Shown: piece after piece, positions 44,107 to 60,742 of the stretch | Numbering within the stretch: position 1 is the first letter of the stretch | How the letters are laid out: each line of letters starts with the position of its first letter | Assembly (NCBI GenBank): GCA_023136775.1 | Contig: JAGLQO010000018.1 | Coordinates: forward strand, 20,452-84,451 | DNA: 64,000 nt | From: Candidatus Pacearchaeota archaeon | GTDB lineage: Archaea > Nanobdellota > Nanobdellia > Pacearchaeales > GW2011-AR1 | Direction: 5' to 3' | The notes under the pieces: generated by a model | The model's database searches: none | What the model was told of the DNA's origin: nothing | The model's input: only the letters and a program-made list of their open reading frames with translations | Program-made: the position numbers and the translations under genes

Positions 44107-45954
44107 ATGAAAAGAGAAATTGTTGTTGTATTATTCTTAGTATTTTTTGTGCAATTTTCTAGTGCTGCTCATTATATTTCTGGGTATGTTAATGATGCTC
44201 TTGATGGGGAAAGTGCGAATGGAAAAATTGTGACACTTTGGAATTATACTGCTGGGCAGTCTGACAATTTGACTGATATTGTTGGGGTTACTGGAAATTC
44301 TGGGGTTTCAAATGTTTACTTAATTGATTGTGAAATGTTAAATGGTGGATGTAGCGTTGGAGATATTTTGAGTTTGAAAATTTTTGGAACAAACTATATT
44401 ACAGAAATTGTAAATGTTACTGTAAGTAGTGCAGGATATGATGCTGTCCCAAATTTAACACTTAATTCTCCGCCAACTGCAATTCTTAATTATCCCGTTA
44501 ATTTTGGAAATGTTTCTGAGAATGTTGATTTTAATTGTTCTTATAATGATCATGATGAAAATATTGTAAGAGTAGCTCTTTGGGGAGATTGGCTTGGTGG
44601 ATGGCAGGAAATTGAAAGTCGAAACTTGGGCCCGAATAGTGGCTCAGTTATTTTTAGTAAAATTTTAACTCAGGATAATTATAAATGGAATTGTCAGGTT
44701 GAAGATGAACTCGGGGTAATGGATTTTTCGTTTAGCAATAATAGTTTTTTTGTTGATACTACCGCACCTGTAATTAATTTTGTTACTCCAGAATCTTTGG
44801 ATGTTTGTGGATATGGATCAATCGAAGTTAACTGTAGTGCTTATGACGAGAATTTAACTATTGGCTCAGTTATTATTGAATCTATTTCTCCGACAAATGA
44901 CAAGGTAAATTATTCTGCTAGTTTTGTTTCTGGAAATATATATAGGTCCAATGTTTTAGTTAATTCTATTGGGGATTGGAATTTTACCTGCTTTACAAAT
45001 GACAGCGTCGGGAATATGAATAGTTTGACTAGTGATTCTGTTGAGGTATTGTCTGGGAATGCTGAACTTTTGTTTACTAGTGGCATTGTTAATTTTGATA
45101 AAACTCCTACGGCGGAAAACGAAGTAATTAATGTTTCTGTAACTCTAGAAAATATTGGATGTGGAGTTGCCAACAATTTAATTGTTGGATTTTTTGATGG
45201 AGAAAAATTTAGCGGATTTAATTTTGACAACAAAACTGTTTCTATTGGGGCGAAGTCTACGATAAATGTTAGTGCTTTGTTTTCTACTAAAATTGGAATT
45301 AGCAATATTTTTGTTTATGCGGATTTAGAAGATTCTATTACAGAAGATAATGAAAGTAATAATGAAGCTAATAATTCGCTTTATTTGAAATCTTGGCAGA
45401 AGGTTTTTGGGAATTTGTCTGTTGATAAAATTTTGATGGGTGACGGAATTAATATGAATTTTTGGAGCGGAGAAACTAGTTTTAATGGAAATGTATTTAT
45501 TGCGGACACTGAAAGTCAAATTGAGTGGACTCAACTGCAAGCGATTGGTCGAACAAAAACTGATGCTGTTAGTTCTGACGACTTTAGTGAACTGGATAAT
45601 TTTCTTGGGATGAATCAATATAACGATTCGATTTATGATTTATTCACTGACGCTGGAAGTCCAAAAACTCTTAGTAATTTGAATGTTTTCAAGCGTGACA
45701 TAAATAATGTTGCTATTGTGAATACTTCTGTATCTGGGAATTTTGCTACTGGAATTTTATGGGATATGTCAGACTCTGCTAACGCGGAATATGATTCTGT
45801 TGAGGGTGAGGATGTTGTTTTTGTTACTCAAATAAATCGTGGGGCTGTTGGAGAGTTTGGAGTTTATGATTATGAGTTGGAGGTTCCTGCTAAGCTTCGG
45901 TCTTATGATGATGGGGAAGAAAGTGAAATATACCTTTACTACGATTTAAATTAG
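44107..45954 (+). CDS. Secreted multi-domain beta-sandwich protein (615 aa)
   Basis: Signal peptide IVVVLFLVFFVQFSSA. Shares its N-terminal domain with 26204..27385. CARDB-like block VINVSVTLENIGCGVANNLIVGFFDG. GGGAG 8 nt upstream of the ATG. Confidence 0.8.
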   Translation: MKREIVVVLFLVFFVQFSSAAHYISGYVNDALDGESANGKIVTLWNYTAGQSDNLTDIVGVTGNSGVSNVYLIDCEMLNGGCSVGDILSLKIFGTNYITEIVNVTVSSAGYDAVPNLTLNSPPTAILNYPVNFGNVSENVDFNCSYNDHDENIVRVALWGDWLGGWQEIESRNLGPNSGSVIFSKILTQDNYKWNCQVEDELGVMDFSFSNNSFFVDTTAPVINFVTPESLDVCGYGSIEVNCSAYDENLTIGSVIIESISPTNDKVNYSASFVSGNIYRSNVLVNSIGDWNFTCFTNDSVGNMNSLTSDSVEVLSGNAELLFTSGIVNFDKTPTAENEVINVSVTLENIGCGVANNLIVGFFDGEKFSGFNFDNKTVSIGAKSTINVSALFSTKIGISNIFVYADLEDSITEDNESNNEANNSLYLKSWQKVFGNLSVDKILMGDGINMNFWSGETSFNGNVFIADTESQIEWTQLQAIGRTKTDAVSSDDFSELDNFLGMNQYNDSIYDLFTDAGSPKTLSNLNVFKRDINNVAIVNTSVSGNFATGILWDMSDSANAEYDSVEGEDVVFVTQINRGAVGEFGVYDYELEVPAKLRSYDDGEESEIYLYYDLN

Positions 45955-46126
45955 TCTTTCGTTGAGAAGTATTCGCTGACAGAAAATCTACATTTTATTA
46001 TTAGCATTTTGAACGTTTGTTATTTTTTGAAGAATTAAATGTGGATTATTTTTTAAGTATCTAGAAAGGCAATTTTGGCCGTGGATTACTCAAGACTTTG
46101 CAGGATTCAAGACAGGAAAGCAATTA

Positions 46127-46165
46127 GCTCACGGATTTACACGGACGCTATCGCGTTCACGGATT
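46127..46165 (+). repeat. B module (CACGGAT-flanked variable hairpin)
   Basis: GCTCACGGATTTACACGG-ACGCtatcGCGT-TCACGGATT. Identical to the copy at 60743-60781. Confidence 0.9.
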
Positions 46166-46211
46166 CAAGACACTAGTCTGTATATTATTTTGTCTATTAA
46201 GTCATTGCCTT

Positions 46212-46251
46212 AATCTGTGAATGACGAAGTCATCCGTGAAAATCCGTGAGC
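46212..46251 (-). repeat. B module, the only minus-strand copy
   Basis: The reverse complement reads GCTCACGGATTTTCACGG-ATGACttcGTCAT-TCACAGATT. Its stem matches the copy at 59332. Confidence 0.9.
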
Positions 46252-46351
46252 AATTTTGTCTTGGAAATTTAGCAACAAGCATTTATTTTCGATAATTAAT
46301 AAATTAAATGTCGAAGACAAGATTTATATAATACTTTTTTTATGTTTTGAT

Positions 46352-48034
46352 ATGGGGAGAAGTGCAGTTGGGAGATTTGTATTATTTGCTTTAATCGGGA
46401 TGCTGATAACCAGTGGGGCTTTGGCTTTTGAGGCTGACCATATTGTTTCTAATTCGGAAAACTGGGAAGATGTTTATTCTACTATGCTTTATTCTAGTTT
46501 GAATGGGATTGGTGGGGATTTTTTAACGAGTACTAAACATGGTCCAATTTTACTTAGTTCTATTTCTACGGGTAAAGAAGTTTTGGTAGTAACTAGTAAG
46601 GATGAGCCCTTTGTTTTTAATTACGATTCTCAAATTAAAGCTCGGGGATTTGAAGACGCCGAGGAAATAAAAGTAGATTCTGCGAATTTAGAATTAGTTA
46701 AGGAGATGAAGGATACAAATAATTTTATTGTAGTTGGAAATTCATATGGATATAATGCTGTGGCAGTTACTCCTTATGCAATCCAAACTGATTCTTGGGT
46801 TTTTTTAGCGAATAGGGTTAATATTGCGGAAATTGAATCTATACTTAATAGAAGAGATATTGGACAATTGCTTGTTTATGGATATATGGATAGGGAAGTT
46901 AAGGAGGCTTTGGAAAAATTTAATCCTGTTGTAATTGATAACGGTAATCGATTTGAAGATAATGTTGAAATTGTTGAAAAATTTAAAGCTACTGATAATG
47001 CAAAACAAGTTTTGCTTAGCAATGGGGAATTTATTGAGCGAGAGATTATGCATGGGAAGCATCCTATTTTGTTTACTGGAAAAGAAAATGTTCCTGAACA
47101 GATTGCTGACTATTTGAAAACTAGTGATATTGAGGTTGGTGTTTTGATCGGGAATGAATTGATTAATGCTGCTACAAATATTCGAAGATCTACGGGAATT
47201 AGCGTTATGGTAAAATTCGCTCAAGGAGCTCGGGCTCAGACCGCTGGGATTTCTGCTGTTGAGGGTCTTGATTTATTTTACTTGCCAACACCAACGCTGA
47301 AATTAGATATTTATTCTGTTAAATATAATAAGGCTAGTTCTCAAATTGAGGTTACTTATCAAAGTAAATCCAATGTTCCTATTTATGTTAAGGGTACTTT
47401 GACTGCTAGTAGCGATGATGATGATATAAAAATGGGGGACACTGAACCTGTTTTTATTGCTCCAAGCGATTATAAAACTCTAGTTTATCCTGATGTCAAG
47501 TTAGAGGGGACTGGACTTAAGGCTAATATTTTTGTTTTATTTGGTGAGGTTAGTGACTCTTTAGATAGGATGATTGAGGGTGAATTTGATATGGGAATTA
47601 TTAATGTTATTGACAAATGTGAAGTTGAAATTAATTCTGTTCATTATAATAAACAAGCTAAAAAGTTTTATGTGACTGTTAAAGACAAAAGTAAGGTTGA
47701 TTGTTTTGTAGATATTGAACTTACTGATGTTTCTATTAATGGAATTGAACAAACTATTGGAACGGAGGGTTCGGTTTTAGTTAAGGGTGGAAAGAAAACC
47801 AAAATTGAAATTAAGCAAAGAATGAATAACGACGATTTATATGATAATCAATTTGTGAATGCTGTTGCTTATTTTGGAGAGAGAGAAGAAACTTTGATAA
47901 AAGTATTTAGAGGAAAGTTTGAACTTAATGTTGATAATTTGACTGGAACTACTTGGGCTATAATTTTAGTTTTGATTTTGATTATTGTGATTGGGCTTGT
48001 TTTATGGAAAAGAAAACGGGATGATGAATGGTAA
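46352..48034 (+). CDS. Secreted, C-terminally TM-anchored envelope protein
   Basis: Start moved to ATG 46352 (MGRSAVGRFVLFALIGMLITSGALA). The track's upstream extension translates a repeat module. C-terminal TM WAIILVLILIIVIGLVLW, then KRKRDDEW. Confidence 0.75.
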   Translation: MGRSAVGRFVLFALIGMLITSGALAFEADHIVSNSENWEDVYSTMLYSSLNGIGGDFLTSTKHGPILLSSISTGKEVLVVTSKDEPFVFNYDSQIKARGFEDAEEIKVDSANLELVKEMKDTNNFIVVGNSYGYNAVAVTPYAIQTDSWVFLANRVNIAEIESILNRRDIGQLLVYGYMDREVKEALEKFNPVVIDNGNRFEDNVEIVEKFKATDNAKQVLLSNGEFIEREIMHGKHPILFTGKENVPEQIADYLKTSDIEVGVLIGNELINAATNIRRSTGISVMVKFAQGARAQTAGISAVEGLDLFYLPTPTLKLDIYSVKYNKASSQIEVTYQSKSNVPIYVKGTLTASSDDDDIKMGDTEPVFIAPSDYKTLVYPDVKLEGTGLKANIFVLFGEVSDSLDRMIEGEFDMGIINVIDKCEVEINSVHYNKQAKKFYVTVKDKSKVDCFVDIELTDVSINGIEQTIGTEGSVLVKGGKKTKIEIKQRMNNDDLYDNQFVNAVAYFGEREETLIKVFRGKFELNVDNLTGTTWAIILVLILIIVIGLVLWKRKRDDEW

Positions 48035-48100
48035 ATCGAAAAAATTTCTGGTGGTCATTTGACACTCCCAGATACAAATCTTCGGGTCGAAATTTTCTTC

Positions 48101-48299
48101 GTAAAAATCCACACGCGGCTGCGGCACACCTCTAATTTGTAAATTATGAGGCGATTTTAGATTCCAAATCCCTTACCGACTTCGTCGCAGATGATTTGAT
48201 ATATTGAGGGAATTTCTTTGAAATTCCCGACTTGTTCAACTTTCTTCCATAAGAAATTACGGCATCTTCGGACGCCGCATTTCTCATGGAGTGTTTTTT
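48101..48299 (+). repeat. 3-prime element: multi-stem module E plus an A hairpin and T-run (candidate structured RNA or terminator)
   Basis: GTAAAAATCCACAC..ATTTTAGATTCC, P1 CAAATC/GATTTG, hairpin GGGAATTTCtttGAAATTCCC (48208-48228). A hairpin 48244-48291 (TTCG loop), T-run 48294-48299. Starts 67 nt after the stop of 46352..48034. Confidence 0.85.
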
Positions 48300-48309
48300 G
48301 ATTCTATAA

Positions 48310-48319
48310 TTTTATATAT
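48310..48319 (+). promoter_or_regulatory. TATA-like box for the phosphoesterase gene
   Basis: TTTTATATAT is centred ~28 nt upstream of ATG 48343, consistent with a leaderless archaeal transcript. Confidence 0.35.
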
Positions 48320-48342
48320 CGTGATTTATTATATTTGTTAAG

Positions 48343-49146
48343 ATGAAAATTTGTGCTATTGGCGACCCTCATGGGGATGTAAAAAAAATAAGAAAGATTC
48401 CTTTGAGGGGTGTTGATTTAATTTTAATCACTGGAGATGTCGGTAAAGCTGATTTTGCTCGAAATAGATTTTTTGAAAATAAGAAGAGAGAAATTGATGG
48501 GCTGGAAAAATTAAAATATACTAATAAAGATAGTATGACTGCTACTTTGGAAATATTTAATTCATCTATTAATGTATGGGAATACACTTCCAAAATTGCA
48601 CCCACCTATTCAATTCTTGGAAATGTCGGAATGTATATGATTTATGATTCAAACATAAAAAAAGAAGAGAAGAAATATGGATTAAAACTTCCTTCACTTA
48701 GACAAGGTATGAACAAGGTAAATGATTTTTATTTTGTCAGAAATCGAACAAGAATTATCGATGGACTCCGAGTTGGATTCTTAGAATATTTCGTTGACGA
48801 TTGTTGGAATAAAGAATATAGGGTAAAAGATAAAAAGAAAATTGCTGCGGCAAAAAAAGAAACCATAAAGGCAAAACGTATTTTAAATAATTTTAAAGAT
48901 TTAGACATTCTTGTTTGCCATCAGCCGCCTTATGGATATCTTGATAAGACAAATAACCCTTCGGCTCTAAAAGAATGGCAGGGGAAACATGCTGGAAGCA
49001 AGGTTATTCTAGATTATATAAAAAAGAATCAACCGAAGTATGTCTTTTGTGGACATATCCATGAGGCTGAAGGTCATGTGAAAATTGGAAAAACTGAAGT
49101 TTATAATTTAGGTGTAGCTGGGCACAAAATTATCGATTTAAAATAA
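48343..49146 (+). CDS. Calcineurin-like metallophosphoesterase
   Basis: Motifs ICAIGDPHGD, LITGDVGK, GNVG, HQPPYG and GHIHE appear in the canonical order. Confidence 0.85.
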   Translation: MKICAIGDPHGDVKKIRKIPLRGVDLILITGDVGKADFARNRFFENKKREIDGLEKLKYTNKDSMTATLEIFNSSINVWEYTSKIAPTYSILGNVGMYMIYDSNIKKEEKKYGLKLPSLRQGMNKVNDFYFVRNRTRIIDGLRVGFLEYFVDDCWNKEYRVKDKKKIAAAKKETIKAKRILNNFKDLDILVCHQPPYGYLDKTNNPSALKEWQGKHAGSKVILDYIKKNQPKYVFCGHIHEAEGHVKIGKTEVYNLGVAGHKIIDLK

Positions 49147-49179
49147 CCTTTCTTGACCAATGGCAGATTTAATAATTTT

Positions 49180-49240
49180 CTTCCATAAAAAATCATAGCG
49201 ATTTTTCCTTTGGAAAAAACGCCAATGATTTCTCATGGAG
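49180..49240 (+). terminator. Long-form A hairpin between convergent genes (possible terminator)
   Basis: CTTCCATAAAAAATCATAGCGATTTTTCCTTTGGAAAAAACGCCAATGATTTCTCATGGAG. Lies 34 nt after the stop of 48343..49146 and 18 nt from the stop of 49258..50064. The following T-run is weak (TGTTTTGG). Confidence 0.4.
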
Positions 49241-49257
49241 TGTTTTGGTTTAGAATA

Positions 49258-50064
49258 TTATTTTTTGGGTTTTTTTGGAGAGGTGGGTTTTTTTGGAGTA
49301 ATTTTTGTTGGTTTTGGTTTTGTTGTGGGTGATTTCATCTTAGCTTTGGGTGTGCTTTTTGTTGGTAGTGGTTCTAATAGTTTCTCATTAGCTTCCTCTG
49401 CGGCTTGTTTTTCTTGTGTTAATTCTATTTCTTTTCTGTTTAAGTTTTTTTCATGCTCTTCGTCAATTTTTATTTGCAATCCTTTCATTGGAATTATTAC
49501 TGATTCTACTTCTGTAAAAATTTTATAGATTGATTCTAAATCTTTTTTTACAATAGAAGATTTCCATATTTTTGTTTTTAATGGAATTTGCAATAATTTC
49601 AAACCTTGGAGTGATAAATTATTTCCTTTTTTTTGTAAATCCGATTTGTCTTGTTTTAGTAAATTTGTCTTGTCTATTATTGCTGCAACTATATCCTCTT
49701 TAGCGATGTCTTCGGCTTCTTTTACTGTATCGAATTTTATTGTTGATTTTGACTTTTGCATAAATTTGTTTGTTTTCATGTAAAGCATTGATTCGATTAA
49801 TTTTTTGTCTTCGACGGTCTGTGGTTTTGGTTTTGGCTCTGGGGGCAATGTGGGACAAGGTGGTAATTTTAAAGACTCTCCAAGCTTTGGTATTGGAAAT
49901 TTTTTACCGTCTTTAGTTATACCTTCTGTTTTAGTTGTAGCTCTCGAATTTTTTGAGCTTGACTTAGAGCTAGCTTTGGGTTTTTTTGAGGGTTTGACTG
50001 GTTTTGGTTTACGTTTAACATTTGAGGTTTTTTTAGGTTTTTTAGAAGTTGTTTTTCGTGCCAT
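49258..50064 (-). CDS. Lys/Pro-rich protein with a helical core homologous to 14791..15114
   Basis: Both termini are K/P/S/T-rich (KKPKKTSNVKRKPKPVKPSKKPK and KSPTTKPKPTKITPKKPTSPKKPKK). The core is KLLQIPLKTKIWKSSIVKKDLESIYKIF. Its ATG overlaps the ATPase stop by 1 nt (TAATG). Confidence 0.7.
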   Translation of the reverse strand: MARKTTSKKPKKTSNVKRKPKPVKPSKKPKASSKSSSKNSRATTKTEGITKDGKKFPIPKLGESLKLPPCPTLPPEPKPKPQTVEDKKLIESMLYMKTNKFMQKSKSTIKFDTVKEAEDIAKEDIVAAIIDKTNLLKQDKSDLQKKGNNLSLQGLKLLQIPLKTKIWKSSIVKKDLESIYKIFTEVESVIIPMKGLQIKIDEEHEKNLNRKEIELTQEKQAAEEANEKLLEPLPTKSTPKAKMKSPTTKPKPTKITPKKPTSPKKPKK

Positions 50065-52508
50065 TATTTTTTAGAGGATTTAGTCTTTGGTTTTGCTGGT
50101 TTTGGTTTTGCCTTAGGTTTTGGGCTTGCTGGTTTTTTAGAGGTTGGTTTTGGCTTGGTAGTTTTTTTTGTTGGGATAACTGATTTTTCTTTTCCGTCCC
50201 ATGCATTTATTTGTTTTATTAATTCTTTTTTGTCTTTTACTGATGACATCCTTGCTCCGAACGATTTTGAAATTTGCTCTAACCATTTTGCTATTTCATT
50301 TTTTTCTTCGTTTACATGAATCGCAAAAGTTTCGTCGTCTAATATTGGCATATATTGTTTTAATTCTTTCAAGCAGGAAATCATTGCTCCATTGTCAAAA
50401 GTTAATGGACTTACTATTTTTTCATTAAGTTCTTCCATCGGGTCAAAGTTTTTGTCGGCTATTGCCTTTTCTTCTGCTGCGGCAACCTCCTTTGCTTTAT
50501 CACTTTCTGCTTTTGCTTCTGCAACTGAAGCTTTAATTTTCTCCAAATCTACTAATTTAACTTCCCTCTTCTTTGGTTTTTTTCCAAGCTTGCTCCACTG
50601 TTTTGCCATTCTGGGTTCAATACCTTCAAGATAAATATCTACAACTGAAAAATTACCTGTCATGATTTTATCTTTGACTAATTTTATTTCCATTTTCAAA
50701 TCAAAAACATCCACTTTCAAGACTTCCAGTTGCTCTAATTGATTTTCAAATTCATCTACTTTGTCGTTGTATTTATTGTATTTTTGCAATTCCTCGTCGC
50801 TAAGACGTCTTGTATTATGAAGTATTGGACGAAATTGCACAAAGTATGGGTTTGCGTGATTATATGCTGGATTAACTACCATTCCAACTCCAACTGAAGC
50901 TTTAACTAAAGACTGCAAAAATTCATCTCCATATTTTGTTTTAATACGATTTAAATCTCCTTCATCCCTCGTTCTCATCTGAACTTCTGTTGAAATATTT
51001 GCTTTAATTTGTCCTGCGAAGTCGGACAAGACCTGAGAAATTAAAGCTACTCCATATCCCCACTTTCGAAATTCTCGGCAAGCTCTTTCGATTTGCACAA
51101 ATCCTTCGCCTGTGCCTCCAAACTTTGGTAAAATTCTATGAATCTCGTCAAAAACTAAAAGTGTTCTAAGTGTTGGATATTCTTTTGGGTCACTTTTAAA
51201 AATTTGTCTAATAATATTTGCAATGAAAATGTCCATATCTTTTGGCTGAAGTTTATTTAATGTAAAAATTTGAATATGTCCTGGTTCGAAATATTTTTCT
51301 ATATCTATAACTTGTCTTGCGTCTTGAACCGCTCTTATATTTCCTGGAAATCCTCTAGCATCTGTTTTTTTCATTCCAAATTCTGGATAAAGTGCAAACA
51401 TTTTTTTATCATCACATTTTCTAAGCATTCCAGACCACTGAGCTGTTGGGTCAAAAACAATTACGCAAACATTTTGTTTCAAAGCTTCTTCGATTATATC
51501 TTGAGCGGCAATTGATTTTCCACCTCCAGTTGCTCCAGCCACAATACAATGTGTCGTTAATTTATGTGGGTCAATATATGCCATTTTTTTTCTTTCCGCA
51601 ATTTTACCTAGCCATAAAAACTTTTTATTTGGTTTTTCTAATGTCTTCATATCTAAAGTCATTTTATATTTCTTAGAATTTTTTATATGCCTAAGAATTA
51701 ATAATATTATGATTATGATTGTTAAAATTGAGCTTATAAAAACAAAAATTGTCCAAACAGGAAATACCCCAAAAAGCTTTCTTTTCATAAATGGAATTTC
51801 TGCTAGAAATAAAGATTCTGAATAAATTAATTTATCGCCGTAATTTGTGGTTACTGTTAAAGTATAATACCCTGAAGTTAGATTATCTGGGAAATCAAAA
51901 TCTTTTAGGATTTGCGTGGAACTTGTTATGTTTAAAATTTCTTTTCCGAGAAAAATTGTGTCATTGGATATTCCGACCATTTTGTATTCAAAAAAAACGT
52001 CGTTGACATCTTCTGGTTTTAATTTTGTGATATCTATTCTTGCTTCGATTTCTTTTGTTAATAAAAATTTATTTTTTATTAAATGTAAATCTACTAGTAA
52101 TAACGGGTCGAGTGAATAATCTACTATTGATAAATTAATTGGAATAATTTCAGAAACTCCTCCTGACAATTTTACTTTCCCTTGATAGTTTCCTATTTCA
52201 ATTCCTTTAATATAAAAACTTAATTCTGAAATATTTTTTGGTTCAATTGTTAATTGAGATTTTTCTAGTGTAATAAATTCTGAGGCGTCGCCTTCGATAG
52301 AAAATTCAATTTTTAATGGTAAATTTAATTTGTTTTCAACTCTTATTGAATCTTCTAAAATGTTTCCTTCTTTTACAATTCTATGAATCTTGTCTCTGGA
52401 AATTTCATAGTTTTCTGAAATAATTGCTTCTCCATATTGTGCCCCTGCAGAAACAAACGAGGAAAATATTATGAATGATAAAAATAAGATTATTAATTTA
52501 TTTTTCAT
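50064..52508 (-). CDS. Second ectodomain-TM-HerA/FtsK-type ATPase fusion (814 aa), paralog of 15116..18799
   Basis: Signal peptide LIILFLSFIIFSSFVSA and a ~240-aa ectodomain. TM FPVWTIFVFISSILTIIIIILLIL. Walker A VAGATGGGKS (DNA ~51514-51543) and Walker B LLVFDEIHRILP. Long near-identical stretches with ATPase 1 (FDPTAQWSGMLRKC, GFPGNIRAV, HIQIFTLNKLQPKDMDIF, FRPILHNTRRLSDEEL). Tail KPKPTSKKPASPKPKAKPKPAKPKTKSSKK. Confidence 0.9.
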   Translation of the reverse strand: MKNKLIILFLSFIIFSSFVSAGAQYGEAIISENYEISRDKIHRIVKEGNILEDSIRVENKLNLPLKIEFSIEGDASEFITLEKSQLTIEPKNISELSFYIKGIEIGNYQGKVKLSGGVSEIIPINLSIVDYSLDPLLLVDLHLIKNKFLLTKEIEARIDITKLKPEDVNDVFFEYKMVGISNDTIFLGKEILNITSSTQILKDFDFPDNLTSGYYTLTVTTNYGDKLIYSESLFLAEIPFMKRKLFGVFPVWTIFVFISSILTIIIIILLILRHIKNSKKYKMTLDMKTLEKPNKKFLWLGKIAERKKMAYIDPHKLTTHCIVAGATGGGKSIAAQDIIEEALKQNVCVIVFDPTAQWSGMLRKCDDKKMFALYPEFGMKKTDARGFPGNIRAVQDARQVIDIEKYFEPGHIQIFTLNKLQPKDMDIFIANIIRQIFKSDPKEYPTLRTLLVFDEIHRILPKFGGTGEGFVQIERACREFRKWGYGVALISQVLSDFAGQIKANISTEVQMRTRDEGDLNRIKTKYGDEFLQSLVKASVGVGMVVNPAYNHANPYFVQFRPILHNTRRLSDEELQKYNKYNDKVDEFENQLEQLEVLKVDVFDLKMEIKLVKDKIMTGNFSVVDIYLEGIEPRMAKQWSKLGKKPKKREVKLVDLEKIKASVAEAKAESDKAKEVAAAEEKAIADKNFDPMEELNEKIVSPLTFDNGAMISCLKELKQYMPILDDETFAIHVNEEKNEIAKWLEQISKSFGARMSSVKDKKELIKQINAWDGKEKSVIPTKKTTKPKPTSKKPASPKPKAKPKPAKPKTKSSKK

Positions 52509-54496
52509 TTTTTCTTCACCTTCGATTTTTTAGATTTTTTTACTGAAGAATGTTTTTTTGACTTTGGAGCGACAGCTTTAGCTGGAGCGATTGGCTTCTT
52601 TGATTTATTAGTAGTTGGTTTTTTTGGAGCGACGACTTTTGTCGAAGCGATTGTCTCTTCTTCCGTCGTTGTTGTTTCTGGAGCGTCGGAAGTTTCTGAA
52701 GTTGAATTTTCCGAGGTTGGAGCATCAGGCTTTATTGGATTTTGTTCTAACAACTTAGAAAATTTATTTAATTCTATTTTAAATTTTTCTTGATTTTGTT
52801 TAAAATCTTTAGATATATGTTGCCCATATGTTACTTTAATTCTTTTATAAATTACTGCTGCTTCCGAAGTTTTTCCTTCTTTTACTAAACCCCTTAATTC
52901 ATTTAGCATGACATATAACTCTAAAGCCTTTTGTCTTTTCTTATTTTTCTTAAAAATGGTAATTAATATTATTATAATTAGAAATAAAATTAGAAATAAA
53001 AACGGGTATAGGAATTTTTCTAAAAGTCTCGCTATTTGAAATCTTGATCCAACGAAGAAAACGTCAGAACCTATGTCTACTATATCTTCACCCGTCGCCC
53101 TTACATAAAATAAATATTCTCCGTCTTCTGTACTTTTTGGAACTGTCAAATTTAAAGATTCTTCTGTGGAGGAAAACATTGTTGTGTCAACACTCCCTGA
53201 TTCTAATATGTTTCCTTTGAAATCTTTTATTGAATAAACTAAACTCAAATCTGTTTCTCTAACATCTCTTATACTAGAAATTGCAACTATCGCTTTTACT
53301 TCTCTACCCGGTTTTACGGCTTTGTATTTTTCTGGGATCATTACGTTAATAGATATTTCCGATTCAAATTTCCTAACATCTAACACTATTGGAATCTCAA
53401 TTTCTTCACCTGCTTCTATAACTAAATATCCAAAATACTGATCTGGCATTGTGTCTTTTGAAACATTAAAATCAATTAAAAGTTCATGAGTTTCTCCTGA
53501 CTCTAATGAAAAAGTACTATCGCTAAGCATCGCAAAATTATTTAAGTTTCCGAGTCTAGTTGTAAAATCTAATAAAATTCCACCGGTATTTGTAACTTTT
53601 ACTATTTTTGTTAAAACGTCTCCTTGACGCATTGAAAGTTTTATGTTACTCACATCTGTCTTAAAATTTGCAGTTGCAAATTCTCCGATAGTTGCCGCTG
53701 GGACTTGTGTTGCAACGCTTGAATCTCCAGAATCATCAGCTGCGTCATTGTCTGTGTCTTCTGAAACTTCTCCTCCAGTATAATCAAACTCTTTTATTGT
53801 GAAACTTTGCACTGTTGTCTCATTTGTGTTTCCATAAATATCTGTTGCTGAAAATTTCCAAGAAACTGTTGTTAGGGGCGAGGCACTCATTTTTACTGTT
53901 ATTTTTGATGTGTTTATAAGTCCTGAAAATAAGGTCGTTGGATGCTGAACCCAGCCCGCACCCTGATTTATAAAAAATATAAAATTTGCCAACCCCATAT
54001 TATCTGTCCAATCGGTTGCAAACTCTACATTATAATTTTGATATACCGATGCCCTATTTTTTCTAACATTAAACCATTTTGGAGCTAGCGTATCTTGCCC
54101 TACCGTTAGGTTAAACCAGTTTCCGTCAATTTTTGTTTTATTATCTGCAACTGAGAAACGTAACTCTTGGGTTCCCATATATAATGGATCTGGATAAAAA
54201 GAAACTCTGTGTTCTGAATCTATCGTTATTGTTATATTTGATATTGACGAAAATGTTATATTCAATTCTTCGCCATTATCTTCTCCGAAATAATCATCTA
54301 AATCTAAAAAATTTGTTGAGTTTTCTCCACCAATTAAAAAAATATCTGGAATATTTTGGATAATGTATGGTGGTGAATCTTCTACAAAAACAGAGGTTGG
54401 AACGTCGCCTGAACCTGTTGAAATGTTTTCTGCGGATGCAAAGCTCAGGCTAAGCAATATACAAGATGCAAGTAAAACTAATGACAATCTCCCCAT
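52505..54496 (-). CDS. Type I membrane surface protein with a Lys-rich cytoplasmic tail, first gene of the second ATPase operon
   Basis: Signal peptide LSLVLLASCILLSLSFASA. TM FLYPFLFLILFLIIIILITIF. Tail with AAVIYKRIKVTYGQHI, then APKKPTTNKSKKPIAPAKAVAPKSKK. ATGA overlap with the ATPase gene. Confidence 0.8.
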   Translation of the reverse strand: MGRLSLVLLASCILLSLSFASAENISTGSGDVPTSVFVEDSPPYIIQNIPDIFLIGGENSTNFLDLDDYFGEDNGEELNITFSSISNITITIDSEHRVSFYPDPLYMGTQELRFSVADNKTKIDGNWFNLTVGQDTLAPKWFNVRKNRASVYQNYNVEFATDWTDNMGLANFIFFINQGAGWVQHPTTLFSGLINTSKITVKMSASPLTTVSWKFSATDIYGNTNETTVQSFTIKEFDYTGGEVSEDTDNDAADDSGDSSVATQVPAATIGEFATANFKTDVSNIKLSMRQGDVLTKIVKVTNTGGILLDFTTRLGNLNNFAMLSDSTFSLESGETHELLIDFNVSKDTMPDQYFGYLVIEAGEEIEIPIVLDVRKFESEISINVMIPEKYKAVKPGREVKAIVAISSIRDVRETDLSLVYSIKDFKGNILESGSVDTTMFSSTEESLNLTVPKSTEDGEYLFYVRATGEDIVDIGSDVFFVGSRFQIARLLEKFLYPFLFLILFLIIIILITIFKKNKKRQKALELYVMLNELRGLVKEGKTSEAAVIYKRIKVTYGQHISKDFKQNQEKFKIELNKFSKLLEQNPIKPDAPTSENSTSETSDAPETTTTEEETIASTKVVAPKKPTTNKSKKPIAPAKAVAPKSKKHSSVKKSKKSKVKKK

Positions 54497-54585
54497 TTCT
54501 CCTCTATGAGTTTAAGTTTTGGATTTATTTAAGTCTTTTTGAGGTCCTGCAAAAGCCTTATAAAGTATCTTTTAGTACTTATTTT

Positions 54586-54786
54586 ATGCCTAAGAAAGAC
54601 CTAAATAAGGTTCGTGCAGAAACGGCTGTTGTGAAGGGGACGATAACTGCGAATCAGAAAGAAGCGATTGCTAATTTAGTTGGAATACTTGGAAGTAACG
54701 AGCAAGATGTTGTCGGAAAAATATTAACTCTTTGGTTATACAATGAGGGATTTTTAAAGGCGAAAATTTCGGAGGGAACTTCTTAG
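54586..54786 (+). CDS. Small hypothetical protein (66 aa)
   Basis: ATG 54586 (MPKKDLNKVRAETAVVKGTITANQKEAIANLVGILG). The track start at 54466 overlaps the divergent gene's 5-prime end. TATA-like CTTATAAAG lies ~25 nt upstream. Confidence 0.45.
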   Translation: MPKKDLNKVRAETAVVKGTITANQKEAIANLVGILGSNEQDVVGKILTLWLYNEGFLKAKISEGTS

Positions 54787-54804
54787 TAGTTTTATAGAAT
54801 AAAA

Positions 54805-57348
54805 ATGGGGAGAGTTGGGAGACTAAATATAATTGTATTAATTTTGATGATAATTGGAGTTGGACTTGTTTCAGGTTCTAGTCAATTTTATAATCTTAAT
54901 ATTGATGTAGAAAAAATAGAAAATTTAAATTCTGAAGAAATAATATTAACTGTTAATTCGCCAAATGATGGATCAATTATTCTAAGTCCGATTGAGTTTG
55001 ACTTAAGTTTGAATTATTCTGACATGTCTCAGGTTGATTGTAAATTATATATTGATGGATTAAGTTATGACTTTGGAGCTAACGGAGATTCTTTTTACAA
55101 TATTGAATTATCTAGTGGTCAAAAAAACTGGGAAATAACATGTCGTGATTTTGAAGATTCTAATATTAACACTTCTGTTGATGGAAACTTTAATGTTTTT
55201 GATTTTTCTATTAATTCTTTAGATGAATTTTATTTTAACGATAGTACTATTTCTGGAACTGTTAATAGTCAAGGGGATTTTGAACTAAAACTTAAATGCG
55301 GTTCTGATGTCCAAACAATTAATACTAGTGGCGGAAATTTTAATGTTGAAAGTCCTGCAATTTCTGCTCCTGGGAAATATGAATTAATTGCTACGACTAA
55401 TTATTATAGTGAAGAATTGTCTGTTTCTAGAAATTTTTCGGTTGGTTATGCTAGTGTTAAATTTGTTGAAGAAAATTCAAATGTTGAAGAAAATGTTGGA
55501 GTTAAATTATATATTGATTCTCAGGGATTTTCTGGGAATTATTATATTAGAGTTGGAAGCGAATTGATTGCGGGGGATGGGTTTACTGGAGCGACTGTTA
55601 TTAATATTGACGCTGGGAATTTTAAATCTAGCAGTGACGGAAGTTATTCTTTAGCACTTACTGGTCAGGTTAATAATAAAAATTATAATTTTGCTGGACT
55701 AAATACTTTGACTGTTGCTAAGGCTGGGAATTCTGATATTGATAGTCCAGATATTGATTTGAAATATCCTGCGTGGGAAGAAACTGTAACAGGTTCTGAA
55801 ATAGAATTTGTGTACACGGTTGAGGACGATTATAATATTAGTGAATGTAAATTAAAAATATATAATGCTTCAAAAAATTCTGCCGGGGTTTATGAAACGG
55901 ATGGGTTGATTTTTCCTTTAAGTAATAGTGATAAAACTTTAGCGAATGAAGACGGTTTAGATAAAAGTGATGAGGTTAAATTGAAGTTAATTGATTTTGA
56001 TGCGGGAGACTTTATTTGGGAAGTTAAATGTAAGGATGGGTCTGGGAATACTGAATGGGATTTTAATTATTTTAAGGTTGATTTTTCAAGTACGAGCTAT
56101 GCTAAAAAAATAACAGATGCAACTAATAATTATACTCGAGAAGATGAGGTTAATGATTTAATTGGTAAAATTAATACATTTTTGGAGGCGGAGTCTAACT
56201 TAGGTATTGAGGAAAGGAATGCTTTGGAGATTTTAGGGATTGATGGCGATATGAGTTTTTATAAAAAGCAACTTATTCAGATGGATCAGGACTTAAAGTT
56301 TAATTTGAAATTTATGGAAGAGGCAAAACGAGAAAAGAGAATTTTGGAGATAGATGAGGAGATAGATGAGATAAGGGATGGAGTTGTTGTGAAAATAGAG
56401 GTGACGGATAGTTATGAATATTCTAAAAATAGCATTGATGTTGATGTCTTTGAGATAATTTCTAGATATTTTGTGGCGACTAATCACAATATAAAATCTA
56501 GTGCGCTTAAGGGGATTTCTAGATATAACGAAGGATTGCAAAGCAAGCTTGGTTCTCGAGTTGAAGCTTTGAGGTTGACTATTGATTATGTTGATGAATC
56601 TCGGGAAATGATTCTTGTTAGTAAAAAACTTACGTTTGATGCCGAGGGAGAAGAAAAACTTTTGGAGATTATTGATGAAGATATTACCAAGGAAATTATT
56701 TTTGTTAATGATGCTAGGGGTATTGGGGAATGTATTTGGGAAATTGAGGTTGATAATTTGATTAATGATAAACTTGTTTATTATTTTTATGATGATTTGT
56801 CTTTACAAAAGATTGAAAAAACCGAAAGTCTTCTGTTTGATGAGGAAGGACGCTTGGAAACCAATATGATAACGGGATTTGTTGTAGGAATTAGTGATGG
56901 ACTTAGTTTTTCGTTTTACTCATTCTTGATTGGATTCTTGTTTATGGGATATGTTGGATTCTTTTTGTTTGGGAAAGCTCGTCTTGAGGTTTGGAAAAAA
57001 GATGTGGCGGTTTCTAATTTGTTGAATTTAATTGAGAAGACTAAATTATTGCTTCGTCAAAATGATGTTGAAAATGCACGAGAGAATTATCATAAGATGG
57101 GGGAGGCGTATAAACTTCTTCCGAATAAATGTAAATTGTTTTTCTTTAATGAGATAAAGATGGTTCGGTTGGCGATTGATAAAAAGGATGTTTTGAATTT
57201 GGTTAAGGAATACGAAAAGGCTAAGATTGAAAATCGGAATGAGGATACTATTCGGCTTCATGCTCGGATTAGCGAGATTTACAAGAAGTTGCCTAAGAAA
57301 TTTCAGGATAAGGTTTATCAAAGATTGGTGAAGAATGAGGTTCGTTGA
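54805..57348 (+). CDS. Type I membrane surface protein (847 aa) with a ~150-aa helical cytoplasmic tail
   Basis: Signal peptide LNIIVLILMIIGVGLVSG. TM FSFYSFLIGFLFMGYVGFFLF. Tail with ARENYHKMGEAYKLLPNKCKLFFFNEI. Confidence 0.8.
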   Translation: MGRVGRLNIIVLILMIIGVGLVSGSSQFYNLNIDVEKIENLNSEEIILTVNSPNDGSIILSPIEFDLSLNYSDMSQVDCKLYIDGLSYDFGANGDSFYNIELSSGQKNWEITCRDFEDSNINTSVDGNFNVFDFSINSLDEFYFNDSTISGTVNSQGDFELKLKCGSDVQTINTSGGNFNVESPAISAPGKYELIATTNYYSEELSVSRNFSVGYASVKFVEENSNVEENVGVKLYIDSQGFSGNYYIRVGSELIAGDGFTGATVINIDAGNFKSSSDGSYSLALTGQVNNKNYNFAGLNTLTVAKAGNSDIDSPDIDLKYPAWEETVTGSEIEFVYTVEDDYNISECKLKIYNASKNSAGVYETDGLIFPLSNSDKTLANEDGLDKSDEVKLKLIDFDAGDFIWEVKCKDGSGNTEWDFNYFKVDFSSTSYAKKITDATNNYTREDEVNDLIGKINTFLEAESNLGIEERNALEILGIDGDMSFYKKQLIQMDQDLKFNLKFMEEAKREKRILEIDEEIDEIRDGVVVKIEVTDSYEYSKNSIDVDVFEIISRYFVATNHNIKSSALKGISRYNEGLQSKLGSRVEALRLTIDYVDESREMILVSKKLTFDAEGEEKLLEIIDEDITKEIIFVNDARGIGECIWEIEVDNLINDKLVYYFYDDLSLQKIEKTESLLFDEEGRLETNMITGFVVGISDGLSFSFYSFLIGFLFMGYVGFFLFGKARLEVWKKDVAVSNLLNLIEKTKLLLRQNDVENARENYHKMGEAYKLLPNKCKLFFFNEIKMVRLAIDKKDVLNLVKEYEKAKIENRNEDTIRLHARISEIYKKLPKKFQDKVYQRLVKNEVR

Positions 57349-57376
57349 CATTTTTTTCTGGTGAAAAAAATCGTCA

Positions 57377-57530
57377 GTAAAAATCCACACAGGATTTTAG
57401 ATTCCGAACCGCTTACCGCACAGGTCGCAGACGGTTCGATACACGAAGGGAATTTGTTTCAAATTCCCGTGATTCGGAATGTTCTTCCATAAGAAATCAC
57501 GACATCTTCGACGCCGCATTTCTCATGGAG
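57377..57530 (+). repeat. Second copy of 3-prime element E plus an A hairpin
   Basis: GTAAAAATCCACAC-AGGATTTTAGATTCC, P1 GAACCG/CGGTTC, hairpin GGGAATTTGtttCAAATTCCC (57448-57468), outer ATTCCGAA/TTCGGAAT. A hairpin 57484-57530. Starts 29 nt after the stop of 54805..57348. Confidence 0.85.
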
Positions 57531-57595
57531 TTATAAATTTTTTAACGGATGTTTTTTTATTTTGAAAATGATTATTATTTTTACTTCGAGACTTT

Positions 57596-57644
57596 CTTCC
57601 ATAGAAAATCGTAGCATCTGCGGACGCTACATTTCCCATGGAAG
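57596..57644 (+). repeat. Stand-alone A hairpin
   Basis: CTTCCATAGAAAAT-CGTAGC-atcTGCGgac-GCTAC-ATTTCCCATGGAAG. Confidence 0.9.
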
Positions 57645-57774
57645 ATTTAAATTATTTTATTTGAAGTCATGGGAAAGACGGACGATTTTGTTTATATTTT
57701 CTCTCCACGAGAAGTCGCGACTTTTTGTGGCCTCAACGGGCATTGCTCTACTGACCCCGATTTGGTTTTAATTT

Positions 57775-57819
57775 GTTGGAACGAGTGAATGGAGCTTTAG
57801 CGAAATGAGGGAGTGAATC
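57775..57819 (+). repeat. Purine-rich F-like module
   Basis: TTGTTGGAACGAGTGAATGGAGCTTTAGCGAAATGAGGGAGTGAATC resembles 10451-10527 and 19101-19160 (TTGTTGGAGCG..GAGTGA). Confidence 0.6.
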
Positions 57820-57826
57820 TTTATTA

Positions 57827-58381
57827 TTAACTATCTAACATATCCCACTCTTCTTTTAGAACCCATCGTAATGCTGAAAGTTTTCCATTTAGCATACCCC
57901 ATTCAAAATCACTCCATGGACCTAATTCTCTTTTCCCATATTTTTTTAAAATATTTTTTTCTGTATTAAGAGCCTCTTTCCATATCTCTTGATTAATCTT
58001 TTTTTTGTTTTTTTTAATGTTACTTTTTACTACTTGATGTCTATCATACCATATCTTATCAAACAAAATTTCTAAAGCATCTAATATTTCTTTTTCGTTT
58101 CTAAATATCTTTTTGTTTTTTTTGATTTTGTTTTTTACTTCTTCTTTGAGCTTATGAAATGCAGCAATTTCTTTAACATCTTTAGACATTTGATCAATGG
58201 TTGAATAAATATTTTTAATCTTGTCGTCCCTTTCATATTGTTCTGCCTGACGCTCTGTTTCCTCCATGGCTTTTATTGTACTTGATAATAGGGGTATTTT
58301 TTTAGCAATATCTTTTGGTATTTGCTTTGCAAGATTTTTATGAAATCTTTTTGTTTTCATTTTTATGGTCATTGTTTTCAT
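57827..58381 (-). CDS. Hypothetical Lys-rich helical protein
   Basis: 184-aa ORF immediately downstream of, and co-oriented with, the recombinase gene. No recognised motif. Confidence 0.5.
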   Translation of the reverse strand: MKTMTIKMKTKRFHKNLAKQIPKDIAKKIPLLSSTIKAMEETERQAEQYERDDKIKNIYSTIDQMSKDVKEIAAFHKLKEEVKNKIKKNKKIFRNEKEILDALEILFDKIWYDRHQVVKSNIKKNKKKINQEIWKEALNTEKNILKKYGKRELGPWSDFEWGMLNGKLSALRWVLKEEWDMLDS

Positions 58382-58401
58382 TTTTATTAAAAAATAACTA
58401 A

Positions 58402-59477: not shown

Positions 59478-59594
59478 TTTATTCTCTTTGATTCATGTGT
59501 AATTTTAACGTATTCTTAACATATTAAACTAACTTATGTGGATTTAATTTTTTATTTTATCTTATGGATTGTGCGAACTATTTTAAAGTGACAA

Positions 59595-60601: not shown

Positions 60602-60742
60602 ACGGGCTATTTCCGTTCGTTTTGTAATGGAAGAACATCATACAATCTGTATTATGCGAACTTTTGCGGATATTCGAGAGAAATAAGGATTGTGCGAACT
60701 TTTGGATTTTGGATTTGAGGAAGAGGAGAGGAAATAATTTTT

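What the first reader, a model, noticed from the sequence alone, without database searches (positions are those of the whole stretch)
48101..48299. Module E: a multi-stem element with compensatory changes at the 3-prime ends of two surface-protein genes (candidate structured RNA)
Seen:
- Two copies (48101-48229 and 57377-57469) begin 67 and 29 nt after the stops of 46352..48034 and 54805..57348.
- Both are followed by an A hairpin.
- The conserved single-stranded parts are GTAAAAATCCACAC, ATTTTAGATTCC, CTTACCG and GTCGCAGA.
- Stem P1 covaries completely (CAAATC/GATTTG vs GAACCG/CGGTTC).
- Hairpin P2 swaps its closing pair (GGGAATTTC-ttt-GAAATTCCC vs GGGAATTTG-ttt-CAAATTCCC).
- The 48-kb copy carries a ~40-nt insertion after CCACAC.

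Inference: double covariation in only two copies is strong for selection on RNA structure. Candidates are a 3-prime-UTR stability, localisation or regulatory element for envelope-protein mRNAs, or a separate sRNA gene.
Basis: partly seen in the sequence, partly recalled or inferred. Interest (0 to 1): 0.65.

Follow-up and report, generated by a model that had tools for sequence, protein, structure and literature searches.

The report
Multi-hairpin intergenic repeat of a Pacearchaeote
Module E is a real four-hairpin element whose stems are kept by compensatory changes. It is one of roughly 30-45 copies of a repeat confined to one narrow lineage of a cold-seep DPANN archaeon, not a signal specific to surface-protein genes.

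Summary
The two copies exist as described and cannot be chance.

- The element starts at or 2 nt after the upstream stop codon, with an unnoticed 12-bp A/T stem (Pa) carrying a bulged C.
- Two of the "single-stranded" blocks, AAAATCC and GGATTTT, pair with each other (stem P0). The 48-kb "insertion" sits in the P0 loop.

**Structure**
- With a third copy from another metagenome (L001), four helices are 97% paired, and 9 pairs change on both sides.
- Fragments of further copies show P2 stems with entirely different sequence.
- The basal P0 pair runs A-U / G·U / G-C on the + strand, which argues for sense-strand RNA.

**Distribution**
- The host is a Pacearchaeote.
- Contig depth implies about 30-45 copies in that genome.
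- Orthologous loci in related Pacearchaeota lack the element.
- The L001 copy lies beside a transporter gene in a divergent promoter region.
- E is one module of a mosaic repeat system (with the "A hairpin" and CACGGAT modules), all co-oriented.
- There is no Rfam match, and no TIR, target duplication, attC core or C/D boxes.

**Reading**
Best reading: a REP/BIME/BOX-like structured intergenic repeat, probably acting in cis on transcripts for termination or 3' end protection. No transcription data could be found.

The parts
48036..48230 (+). Module E, copy 1 (195 nt; about 120-nt core plus two loop insertions)
   Evidence: Covariance model R1 scores 102 bits, E 2.5e-24. Sequence read.
48037..48101 (+). 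Copy 1, stem Pa. Outer pairs CGAA/TTCG, bulged C at 48097, inner pairs AAAATTTC (48041-48048) with GAAATTTT (48089-48096). About 40 nt of extra hairpin in its loop (48049-48088).
   Evidence: The minimum-free-energy fold pairs these bases. Four T:A to A:T flips relative to the 57k copy, read directly from the sequence.
48104..48158 (+). Copy 1, stem P0: AAAATC (48104-48109) with GATTTT (48153-48158). The loop holds the 38-nt insertion 48115-48152.
   Evidence: structural alignment. L001 carries the compensatory variant AAAATTC/GAATTTT.
48165..48198 (+). Copy 1, stem P1: CAAATC (48165-48170) with GATTTG (48193-48198). It encloses invariant CTTACCG (48172-48178), a 5-nt variable stretch, and invariant GTCGCAGA (48184-48191). 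The invariant linker AGATTC lies just 5' (48159-48164).
48208..48228 (+). Copy 1, hairpin P2: GGGAATTTC-TTT-GAAATTCCC
48245..48299 (+). A hairpin (48245-48291) plus T6 run (48294-48299). A separate, more abundant module that follows E.
57346..57470 (+). Module E, copy 2 (compact form, 125 nt). Its first bases overlap the TGA stop of ORF 54805-57348.
   Evidence: Covariance model R1 scores 153 bits. Sequence read.
57347..57375 (+). Copy 2, stem Pa. GAC + ATTTTTTTC, loop TGGT, GAAAAAAAT, bulged C at 57372, GTC. It carries a T7 run on the + strand and, through the A7 run, a T7 run on the - strand.
   Evidence: Fold. Covariation with L001 (CAAC/GTTG) and with the 48k copy.
57380..57398 (+). Copy 2, stem P0: AAAATCC-ACACA-GGATTTT
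   Evidence: Variants in other copies.
57405..57438 (+). Copy 2, stem P1: CGAACCG/CGGTTCG enclosing CTTACCG-CACAG-GTCGCAGA
57448..57468 (+). Copy 2, hairpin P2: GGGAATTTG-TTT-CAAATTCCC
57485..57643 (+). Two A hairpins downstream of copy 2 (57485-57530 and 57597-57643). The stretch 57533-57728 is absent from some strains.
   Evidence: The joint that skips 196 nt is seen in runs X2 and X6.

Best explanation
Module E is one family of a lineage-specific, modular, high-copy intergenic repeat system in a cold-seep Pacearchaeote (DPANN archaeon). In kind it resembles the bacterial REP/BIME and BOX elements.

**Anatomy**
- Each copy is a row of four hairpins, Pa-P0-P1-P2.
- The stems are free to change as long as they stay paired.
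- The linkers and the P1 internal loop are invariant: AGAUUC, CUUACCG, GUCGCAGA.
- Hairpin loops accept 35-40-nt insertions.
- Copies are usually followed by the separate A hairpin and a T run.

**Shown**
- The anatomy above.
- Covariation in all four helices.
- Tens of copies in one genome.
- Absence from syntenic loci of relatives, so the copies spread recently.
- Placement in any kind of intergenic space.
- Co-orientation with the other modules.

**Inferred**
- The hairpins are selected in the + (sense) strand RNA, because the basal P0 pair runs A-U, G·U, G-C on that strand.
- The element acts in cis on whatever transcript runs into it. The oligo-T tracts in Pa and after the A hairpin would be archaeal termination signals. 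The hairpin array would block 3' end decay or insulate neighbouring genes in a compact genome.
- The invariant unpaired motifs are the likely contact site for a protein, either an RNA-binding factor or the enzyme that spreads the element.
For: **Real repeat**
-.
- A third copy in another metagenome, Ga0233410.

**Structure**
- 35 pairs, 96.9% paired; 9 pairs with a change on both sides; slid controls 29-67%.
- Pa outer pairs GAC/GTC, CAAC/GTTG, CGAA/TTCG, with a conserved bulged C.
- Unrelated P2 stems in other copies, and P0 variants GGAAATCC/GGATTTC (G-C) and GGGAAATCC/GGATTTT (G·U).

**Copy number**
- In run X1, 31-59 contigs were laid. The contigs individually listed (8 per call) all had 36-54x depth, the window's own depth.
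- Summed depth is 1200-2200 over Pa-P0 and up to 1530 over the 48k-type 3' half.

**Host**
- Pacearchaeota, from the names that sources give to close homologues.

**Recent spread**
- No E or other module in L014-L023, which include syntenic clusters L022 and L023.
- 0 true hits in 185,579 species genomes and in IMG/VR.

**Not tied to gene class**
-.

**Modularity**
- E+A, CACGGAT+A, A alone, and Pa joined directly to A.
- A 196-nt module-containing indel varies between strains.

**Termination signals**
- T7/T6 runs in Pa of two of the three copies, and T6 after the A hairpin of the 48k copy; the other two have an AT-rich tail with a T6 run a few bases on (57k) or T4 (L001). That oligo-T is an archaeal terminator rests on my own knowledge.

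**Analogy**
- REPs act as 3'UTR terminators and mRNA stabilisers (bioRxiv 10.64898/2026.03.23.713779).
Against: - No transcript evidence at all: no RNA run holds the locus.
- A T7 run in the 5' arm of Pa could stop sense transcription before most of E is made. The 48k copy has only T3-T4 there, so a terminator role is not uniform.
- The L001 copy has no same-strand gene upstream.
- The three full copies have no G·U pairs in about 96 cells, which would also fit DNA hairpins.
- The adjoining A hairpin carries 2-4 A·C mismatches on the + strand (G·U on the - strand). The 57k unit therefore folds better as - strand (z -6.8 against -2.9). The strand argument is not clean for the composite unit.
- All modules point the same way whatever the gene strand. 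A purely transcript-level function does not predict this.
- The mobilising mechanism is unknown.
- Only three full-length copies could be read. The other variants come from 30-nt loose ends of contigs.
Confidence: 0.5

Rival explanations
1. E is a functional structured RNA motif in its own right: a high-copy cis-regulatory or protein-binding RNA, an sRNA gene family, or a new small ribozyme. The invariant internal-loop nucleotides form the active or binding core. The copy number reflects need, not selfish spread.
For: - The pattern of invariant loops, covarying stems and loops that tolerate insertions is typical of aptamers, ribozymes and protein-binding RNAs.
- The A-U / G·U / G-C series lies on one strand.
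- P2 and A hairpin loops are of the UUCG/UGCG type.
- A small inner hairpin in the P1 loop is kept by two different registers: CGAC/GUCG in 48k and L001, ACC/GGU in 57k (sequence).
Against: - No Rfam family at gathering score or at E<=10 over E.
- No promoter at a fixed distance was seen by eye; the 48k insertions shift any upstream signal by about 40 nt.
- Contexts are heterogeneous: after a gene, before a gene, in a divergent promoter region.
- Absent from relatives that share 70-84% protein identity, so it is not an old regulatory device.
- Mosaic shuffling with other modules.
- No C/D or K-turn signature: no C box or CUGA, and CUUAC in place of the N3-GA bulge strand (read from the sequence).
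Confidence: 0.25
2. E is a DNA-level element. Its hairpins form in single-stranded DNA and are the recognition ends of a transposase-free derivative of an IS200/IS605-type transposon (a PATE) or of a REP/RAYT-like system. It is mobilised during replication, which would explain the uniform orientation.
For: - No terminal inverted repeats and no target duplication, but hairpins at both ends of the E+A unit. These are the stated PATE features (PMC3119063).
- All modules are co-oriented in the window (+ strand) and in L001 (- strand), independent of gene strand.
- The stems of the three full copies are purely Watson-Crick.
- Extra hairpins are inserted into palindrome loops, as described for Haloquadratum PATEs.
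- Module presence or absence varies between strains.
Against: - No transposase or HUH nuclease among the window's ORFs of 120 aa or more that were scanned (about 29; several were not scanned, among them the giant proteins and the 1227-aa ORF), nor in the Pfam marks of the gene tables of L002/L021.
- No conserved GTAG/CGTC tag.
- No conserved flanking target.
- Modules recombine in several orders, so a single element with fixed ends is not evident.
- G·T at the base of P0 in most copies is less expected for a nuclease-recognised DNA hairpin, though tolerated.
- The direction of replication could not be established.
Confidence: 0.2
3. E is a recombination site (integron attC-like or Xer/dif-like) used by the tyrosine recombinase at 58402-59226.
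For: - A tyrosine recombinase gene lies 1 kb from the 57k copy.
- The two copies are direct repeats 9.3 kb apart.
- attC sites are folded, covarying hairpins at the 3' ends of genes (own knowledge).
Against: - The recombinase and its neighbours are syntenic in relatives that lack E.
- It is 274 aa; that this is Xer-sized and short for an IntI is my own knowledge, and no IntI-specific domain was looked for.
- No RYYYAAC/GTTRRRY core sites.
- The copies are 78% identical, not exact att repeats.
- There are tens of copies next to large unrelated genes.
Confidence: 0.03
4. E plus the A hairpin encodes a small protein on the - strand. ORFs of about 40 codons are open in both window copies.
For: The - strand frames ...RRCR(D/N)FLWK...IP..Y...CD..GK.FGI* are open in both window copies.
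Against: - The L001 copy has a 10-nt shorter P2, which breaks the frame.
- The changes are paired stem flips, not third-codon changes.
- No gene was called there in the public assemblies.
- A six-frame peptide search of 5.8 billion proteins found nothing.
Confidence: 0.01

Closest known systems
REP / BIME elements of Escherichia coli and other bacteria
   Same: - High-copy, extragenic, hairpin-forming repeats.
- Mosaic combinations of a few modules.
- Often placed right after genes or between convergent genes.
- Locations vary between strains.
- Reported roles as terminator and mRNA 3' end stabiliser (PMC3116915 and PMC3733652 listed).
   Different: - No sequence similarity.
- E is a 125-nt array of four different hairpins with invariant unpaired motifs, not a 20-40-nt palindrome.
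- No GTAG/CGTC tag.
- Archaeal (DPANN) host.
- No RAYT gene known.
BOX elements of Streptococcus pneumoniae (boxA-boxB-boxC modules)
   Same: Modular intergenic repeats of 100-200 nt with predicted stable folds, variable module number and no transposase (own knowledge, not checked here).
   Different: Unrelated sequence and host. E carries loop insertions and strict co-orientation, which I do not know to be described for BOX.
PATEs (palindrome-associated transposable elements) of Haloquadratum walsbyi, derived from IS200/IS605-type transposons
   Same: - Archaeal.
[quoted passage not shown]
- No inverted terminal repeats and no target duplication.
- Palindromes near the ends.
- Heterogeneous copies.
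- Other small repeats inserted into the palindromes (PMC3119063).
   Different: - No related IS605-type transposon or TnpA/TnpB gene could be looked for, because the genome is not held.
- E has four internal hairpins with covariation and invariant linkers, which points to more than an end-recognition signal.
Archaeal oligo-T intrinsic terminators
   Same: T6-T7 runs directly after the stop codon (Pa of the 57k copy and of L001) and after the A hairpin. The T-run/A-run palindrome gives a T run on both strands.
   Different: - As far as I know, archaeal termination needs no hairpin.
- The 48k copy has only T3-T4 in Pa.
- The P0-P1-P2 core has no T run.
Integron attC sites
   Same: Folded, covarying imperfect palindromes at the 3' ends of genes, all in one orientation.
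   Different: - No R''/R' core sites.
- No cassette array.
- No IntI-type integrase.
- Flanking genes are large and conserved.

Membership tests
Any Rfam 15 family | Score at or above the family's gathering threshold | tested here: not met
   0 hits in the whole window at gathering score. At E<=10 only sub-threshold chance hits appear, none over the E core.
REP / BIME | High copy number, extragenic location, hairpin potential | tested here: met
   31-59 contigs laid; those listed individually are at single-copy depth. All three full copies are intergenic. Four helices are supported.
REP / BIME | Conserved GTAG or CGTC tetranucleotide at one end of the palindrome | tested here: not met
   GTAG is absent. 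CGTC is present but at different, non-homologous positions in the three copies.
REP / BIME | Cognate RAYT (Y1 HUH transposase) gene in the genome | not testable with these tools
   Only about 73 kb of the genome is held. No such domain was found in the ORFs that were scanned.
MITE | Terminal inverted repeats and a target-site duplication | tested here: not met
   Best local match between the two ends scores 5-6 in 40 nt. The longest word shared by the flanks is 3-4 nt.
PATE (IS200/IS605-derived) | No TIR, no target duplication, near-terminal palindromes, non-coding | tested here: met
   Pa lies at the 5' end, and P2 or the A hairpin at the 3' end. Coding is excluded by the frameshift in L001.
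PATE (IS200/IS605-derived) | Ends related to those of an IS605-type transposon of the same or a related genome | not testable with these tools
   No genome of this lineage is in the searchable collections.
Integron attC | R'' RYYYAAC and R' GTTRRRY core sites flanking the palindrome | tested here: not met
   no GTTRRRY in any copy, and one RYYYAAC in one copy only.
Archaeal C/D box sRNA | C box RUGAUGA and D box CUGA | tested here: not met
   Neither motif occurs in any copy.
Archaeal H/ACA sRNA | ACA box 3' of the hairpin; guide pocket that varies between members | tested here: not met
   ACA follows P1 only in the 57k copy; the others read AUAUAU and AUUUAA. The internal-loop strands are invariant while the stems vary.
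Structured RNA (generic) | Base pairs kept by compensatory and wobble changes on one strand | tested here: met
   (9 pairs changed on both sides in 3 sequences). (the A-U / G·U / G-C series at the base of P0, and unrelated P2 stems). Caveats: only three full copies, and the alignment was fitted to the model.
Structured RNA (generic) | Evidence of transcription | not testable with these tools
   No RNA run holds the locus.

The most novel reading that the evidence does not exclude
E is a previously undescribed class of structured RNA in DPANN archaea. Its invariant core (AGAUUC, CUUACCG, GUCGCAGA) is held by four covarying helices. It would work as a protein-binding or catalytic motif, for example a 3' end processing or stability signal or a small self-cleaving ribozyme, carried around the genome by a mobile repeat.
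Probability: 0.2. Interest if true: 0.7.

Novelty: new member of a known kind. Interest (0 to 1): 0.42.

Why it matters
- DPANN archaea have small, compact genomes. I found no description of their non-coding repeats in a three-term full-text search.
- A repeat system that fills a large share of the intergenic space of a Pacearchaeote, with clear covariation, would be a first handle on how these organisms end or protect transcripts.
- It would also show how selfish elements persist in reduced genomes.
- The family is also a practical strain marker, and a cause of assembly breaks in these metagenomes.
- If the invariant loops turn out to bind a protein or to be catalytic, this would be a new RNA motif class.

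Tried and rejected
1. **Collection scans for more copies.** Two patterns on genome contigs gave 0 hits and then 7 chance hits in unrelated bacteria. Four scans of viral contigs gave only chance matches in coding DNA. The single metagenome scan gave one true hit, L001.
2. **Orthologous loci.** Homologues of the metallophosphoesterase and of the HerA-like ATPase led to loci L014-L023. None holds E or any other module, by blastn or by the covariance model.
3. **Walking along the source scaffold.** Only 8.6 kb could be added (L021), with no new copy.
4. **Spurious-ORF trick.** Six-frame peptides of the three copies, concatenated and searched against 5.8 billion proteins, gave no hit.
5. **RNA evidence.** No RNA run was listed.
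7. **Short references.** In read laying these suppress the table of other letters. Linked 5'/3' arm states of P1 in further copies could therefore not be read. The pairs CAAACCC/GGGTTTG and CAAATTC/GAATTTG are only consistent with the counts, and two G·U pairs in P1 of one contig remain tentative.
8. **Readings rejected.** Small-protein gene, attC or att site, C/D or H/ACA sRNA, K-turn, tRNA-like element (no ARAGORN hit). A long-range helix ATTCCGAA/TTCGGAAT is seen only in the 57k copy.
9. **Bacterial-type promoter and terminator scan.** Uninformative for an archaeon.

Full report
**1. The observation**

- They align at 78% identity over the core.
- The block GATTTTAGATTCC-N6-CTTACCG occurs exactly twice in 64 kb, against 0 expected in shuffles.
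- The stated stop-codon distances, the P1 and P2 differences and the insertion (38 nt, 48115-48152) are all correct.
- Each copy is followed by an A hairpin.

**2.

*Stem P0.* AAAATCC and GGATTTT, listed as single-stranded, are complementary and form a stem. The 48k insertion lies in its loop.

*Stem Pa.* The element extends to the stop codon through another stem.
- In the 57k copy: GAC-ATTTTTTTC-TGGT-GAAAAAAAT-C-GTC (57347-57375). It overlaps the TGA stop.
- In the 48k copy: CGAA-AAAATTTC ... GAAATTTT-C-TTCG (48037-48101). It has about 40 extra nt in the loop and four T:A to A:T flips.
- In a third copy: CAAC-ATTTTTTC-TAGT-GAAAAAAT-C-GTTG.
- The bulged C is conserved in all three.

- It has P0 as AAAATTC/GAATTTT.
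- It has P1 as CAAATCA/TGATTTG.
- It has a short P2, GGGC-TTC-GCCC.

**3. Structure test**

A covariance model built from the window copies (35 pairs) finds the three copies at 153, 102 and 75 bits. It finds nothing else in 205 kb of held sequence.

On the resulting alignment:
- 96.9% of 96 cells are standard pairs.
- 9 pairs change on both sides.
- Sliding the partner by 1-3 columns gives 29-67% paired.

The caveats are that only three sequences are involved and that the alignment was fitted to the model.

Independent support comes from 30-nt loose ends of Logan contigs that carry other copies.
- P2 occurs as GGGCGAAAT-TTT-ATTTCGCCC, with six inner pairs changed on both sides, and as GAGAGC-TTC-GCTCTC.
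- P0 occurs as GGAAATCC...GGATTTC, with a new G-C pair.
- In the majority of contigs P0 occurs as (G)GAAATCC...GGATTTT, a G·U at the base on the + strand.
- An A-U / G·U / G-C series on one strand is the usual signature of RNA-level selection. On the minus strand the same copies would carry A·C.

The minus-strand ORF of about 40 codons that spans E and the A hairpin is not a gene. The 10-nt shorter P2 of L001 breaks the frame.

**4. Where it lives**

*Host and source.*
- Close homologues of the neighbouring metallophosphoesterase are named Pacearchaeota or Nanoarchaeota.
- The window is part of a 198-kb scaffold from a cold-seep metagenome.

*Copy number in the source sample.*
- 31-59 contigs match E at 80% or more.
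- Those individually listed all sit at 36-54x, the window's own coverage.
- Summed depth is 1200-2200 over Pa-P0 and up to 1530 over the 48k-type 3' half.
- That is roughly 30-45 copies in this genome, or in populations equally abundant with it. It fits two copies per 64 kb.

*Absence elsewhere.*
- Loci of related Pacearchaeota have neither E nor any other module of the window.
- Two of these, L022 and L023, keep the same gene order: integrase / HAD / 847-like / 66 / 663-like / HerA-like / 268-like / 560-like / CARDB / giant protein.
- GTDB species genomes and IMG/VR have none.
- The copies are therefore recent, lineage-specific additions, not conserved UTR elements.

*No link to a gene class.*
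- The two upstream proteins are unrelated to each other.
- The L001 copy lies between a divergently transcribed AI-2E-family transporter gene and a 234-aa ORF, on a contig that also carries ribosomal protein genes (L1, L10), a TYW1-like wyosine gene and a nucleoside-phosphorylase-family gene.

**5. A modular system**

- The intergenic regions of the window are built from a few repeated modules:
  - the A hairpin (9 copies);
  - a CACGGAT-repeat module (7 copies plus one inverted);
  - a GGTCTCAAACGACATG module;
  - E.
- The combinations vary: E+A, CACGGAT+A, A alone, A+A. In other contigs Pa is joined directly to A, and E occurs without an A hairpin within the next 30 nt.
- All modules in the window lie on the + strand whatever the gene strand. 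All in L001 lie on the - strand.
- A 196-nt stretch containing an A hairpin is missing in some strains.

**6. Known families**

- No Rfam family matches.
- There are no terminal inverted repeats, target duplications, attC cores, GTAG/CGTC tags or C/D boxes.
- The internal-loop strands are invariant while the stems vary. This is the opposite of a guide RNA.
- In kind, the closest things are the REP/BIME and BOX repeats of bacteria and the PATEs of haloarchaea. There is no sequence relation to any of them.

**7. Mechanism**

*Best reading (0.5).* E is a selfish-origin, structured intergenic repeat that acts in cis at the RNA level.
- The oligo-T tracts in Pa and after the A hairpin would act as termination signals.
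- The hairpin array would act as a 3' end protector or insulator.
- The invariant loops would be a protein contact.

*Weak points.*
- There are no transcription data.
- T runs are not uniform: the 48k copy has only T3-T4 in Pa.
- The L001 copy has no same-strand gene upstream.
- The A hairpin favours the - strand.
- The uniform orientation is unexplained.

*Rivals.*
- An autonomous functional RNA motif (0.25).
- An ssDNA-level PATE or REP-like element (0.2).
- A recombination site (0.03).
- A coding ORF (0.01).

**8. Verdict**

The inference of selection on structure holds. The link to envelope-protein mRNAs does not. This is a new family of a known kind of element, in a poorly studied archaeal lineage, and of moderate interest.

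Noticed in passing
window 7772, 10392, 19029, 27792, 43979, 48245, 49181, 57485, 57597 (all + strand); L001 590, ~837, 1894, 6182, 9967, ~10201, 11415 (all - strand): The A hairpin family (CTTCCATRAGAAAT...ATTTCTYATGGAG, in most copies followed within a few bases by a T run or T-rich stretch). It has two loop variants. Each copy has 2-4 A·C mismatches on the + strand, at positions that differ between copies; these are G·U on the - strand. The 57k unit that contains one folds much better as - strand (z -6.8 against -2.9). The loops nevertheless read UUCG/UGCG on the + strand. Its functional strand is unresolved and seems to differ from that of E.
   Followed up: partly
window 7678, 10329, 18938, 27706, 46122, 59327, 60738; inverted copy 46215-46255: A module GCTCACGGATTTACACGGA-hairpin-TTCACGGAT with three CACGGAT direct repeats: 7 co-oriented copies. 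At 46122-46255 two copies face each other as an inverted pair around about 50 nt, which looks like a MITE.
   Followed up: no
window ~7598-7680, 30825-30907, 60800-60886: A third repeated module, TTGGTCTCAAACGACATG...GGTGA.CCCGCTCGCGGATT...GGGGATT..AAGACA, in three copies. It is usually upstream of the CACGGAT module.
   Followed up: no
window 61770-61935 and 59565-60700: At least 8 short direct repeats containing GGTGTTT lie directly upstream of ORF 61934-62587 and resemble iterons. GGATTGTGCGAAC occurs about 4 times in the long non-coding stretches 59.2-60.1 kb and 60.6-61.9 kb. orc1/cdc6 and the PolD genes lie 4-8 kb beyond the window end (L021). This could be a replication-origin or plasmid-like region.
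   Followed up: no
window 57533-57728: Contigs from runs X2 and X6 join 57532 directly to 57729. A 196-nt stretch with the second A hairpin is therefore present in some strains and absent in others.
   Followed up: partly
window 44107-59226; L022, L023: A gene cluster conserved in Pacearchaeota: giant surface protein, CARDB protein, 560-aa membrane-anchored protein, 268-aa protein, HerA/DUF87-like ATPase, 663-aa protein, 66-aa protein, 847-aa membrane protein, Xer-like recombinase. A second, paralogous HerA-like gene is at 15116-18799. In the window, the metallophosphoesterase gene 48343-49146 with E and the A hairpin is extra relative to L022 and L023.
   Followed up: partly
window 48049-48088 and 48115-48152; other copies at the position of 57362/57366: The loops of Pa and P0 accept 34-40-nt insertions that are themselves small hairpins. 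A different 34-nt insert (TCCGCCTAACTGGCATGCTCCTCTGCGGAGGCAC) sits in the Pa loop of copies seen in runs X1, X2, X5 and partly X6.
   Followed up: partly
window 12226-13121: A HepT-like RNase and a nucleotidyltransferase (MNT) gene pair: a toxin-antitoxin-type module.
   Followed up: no
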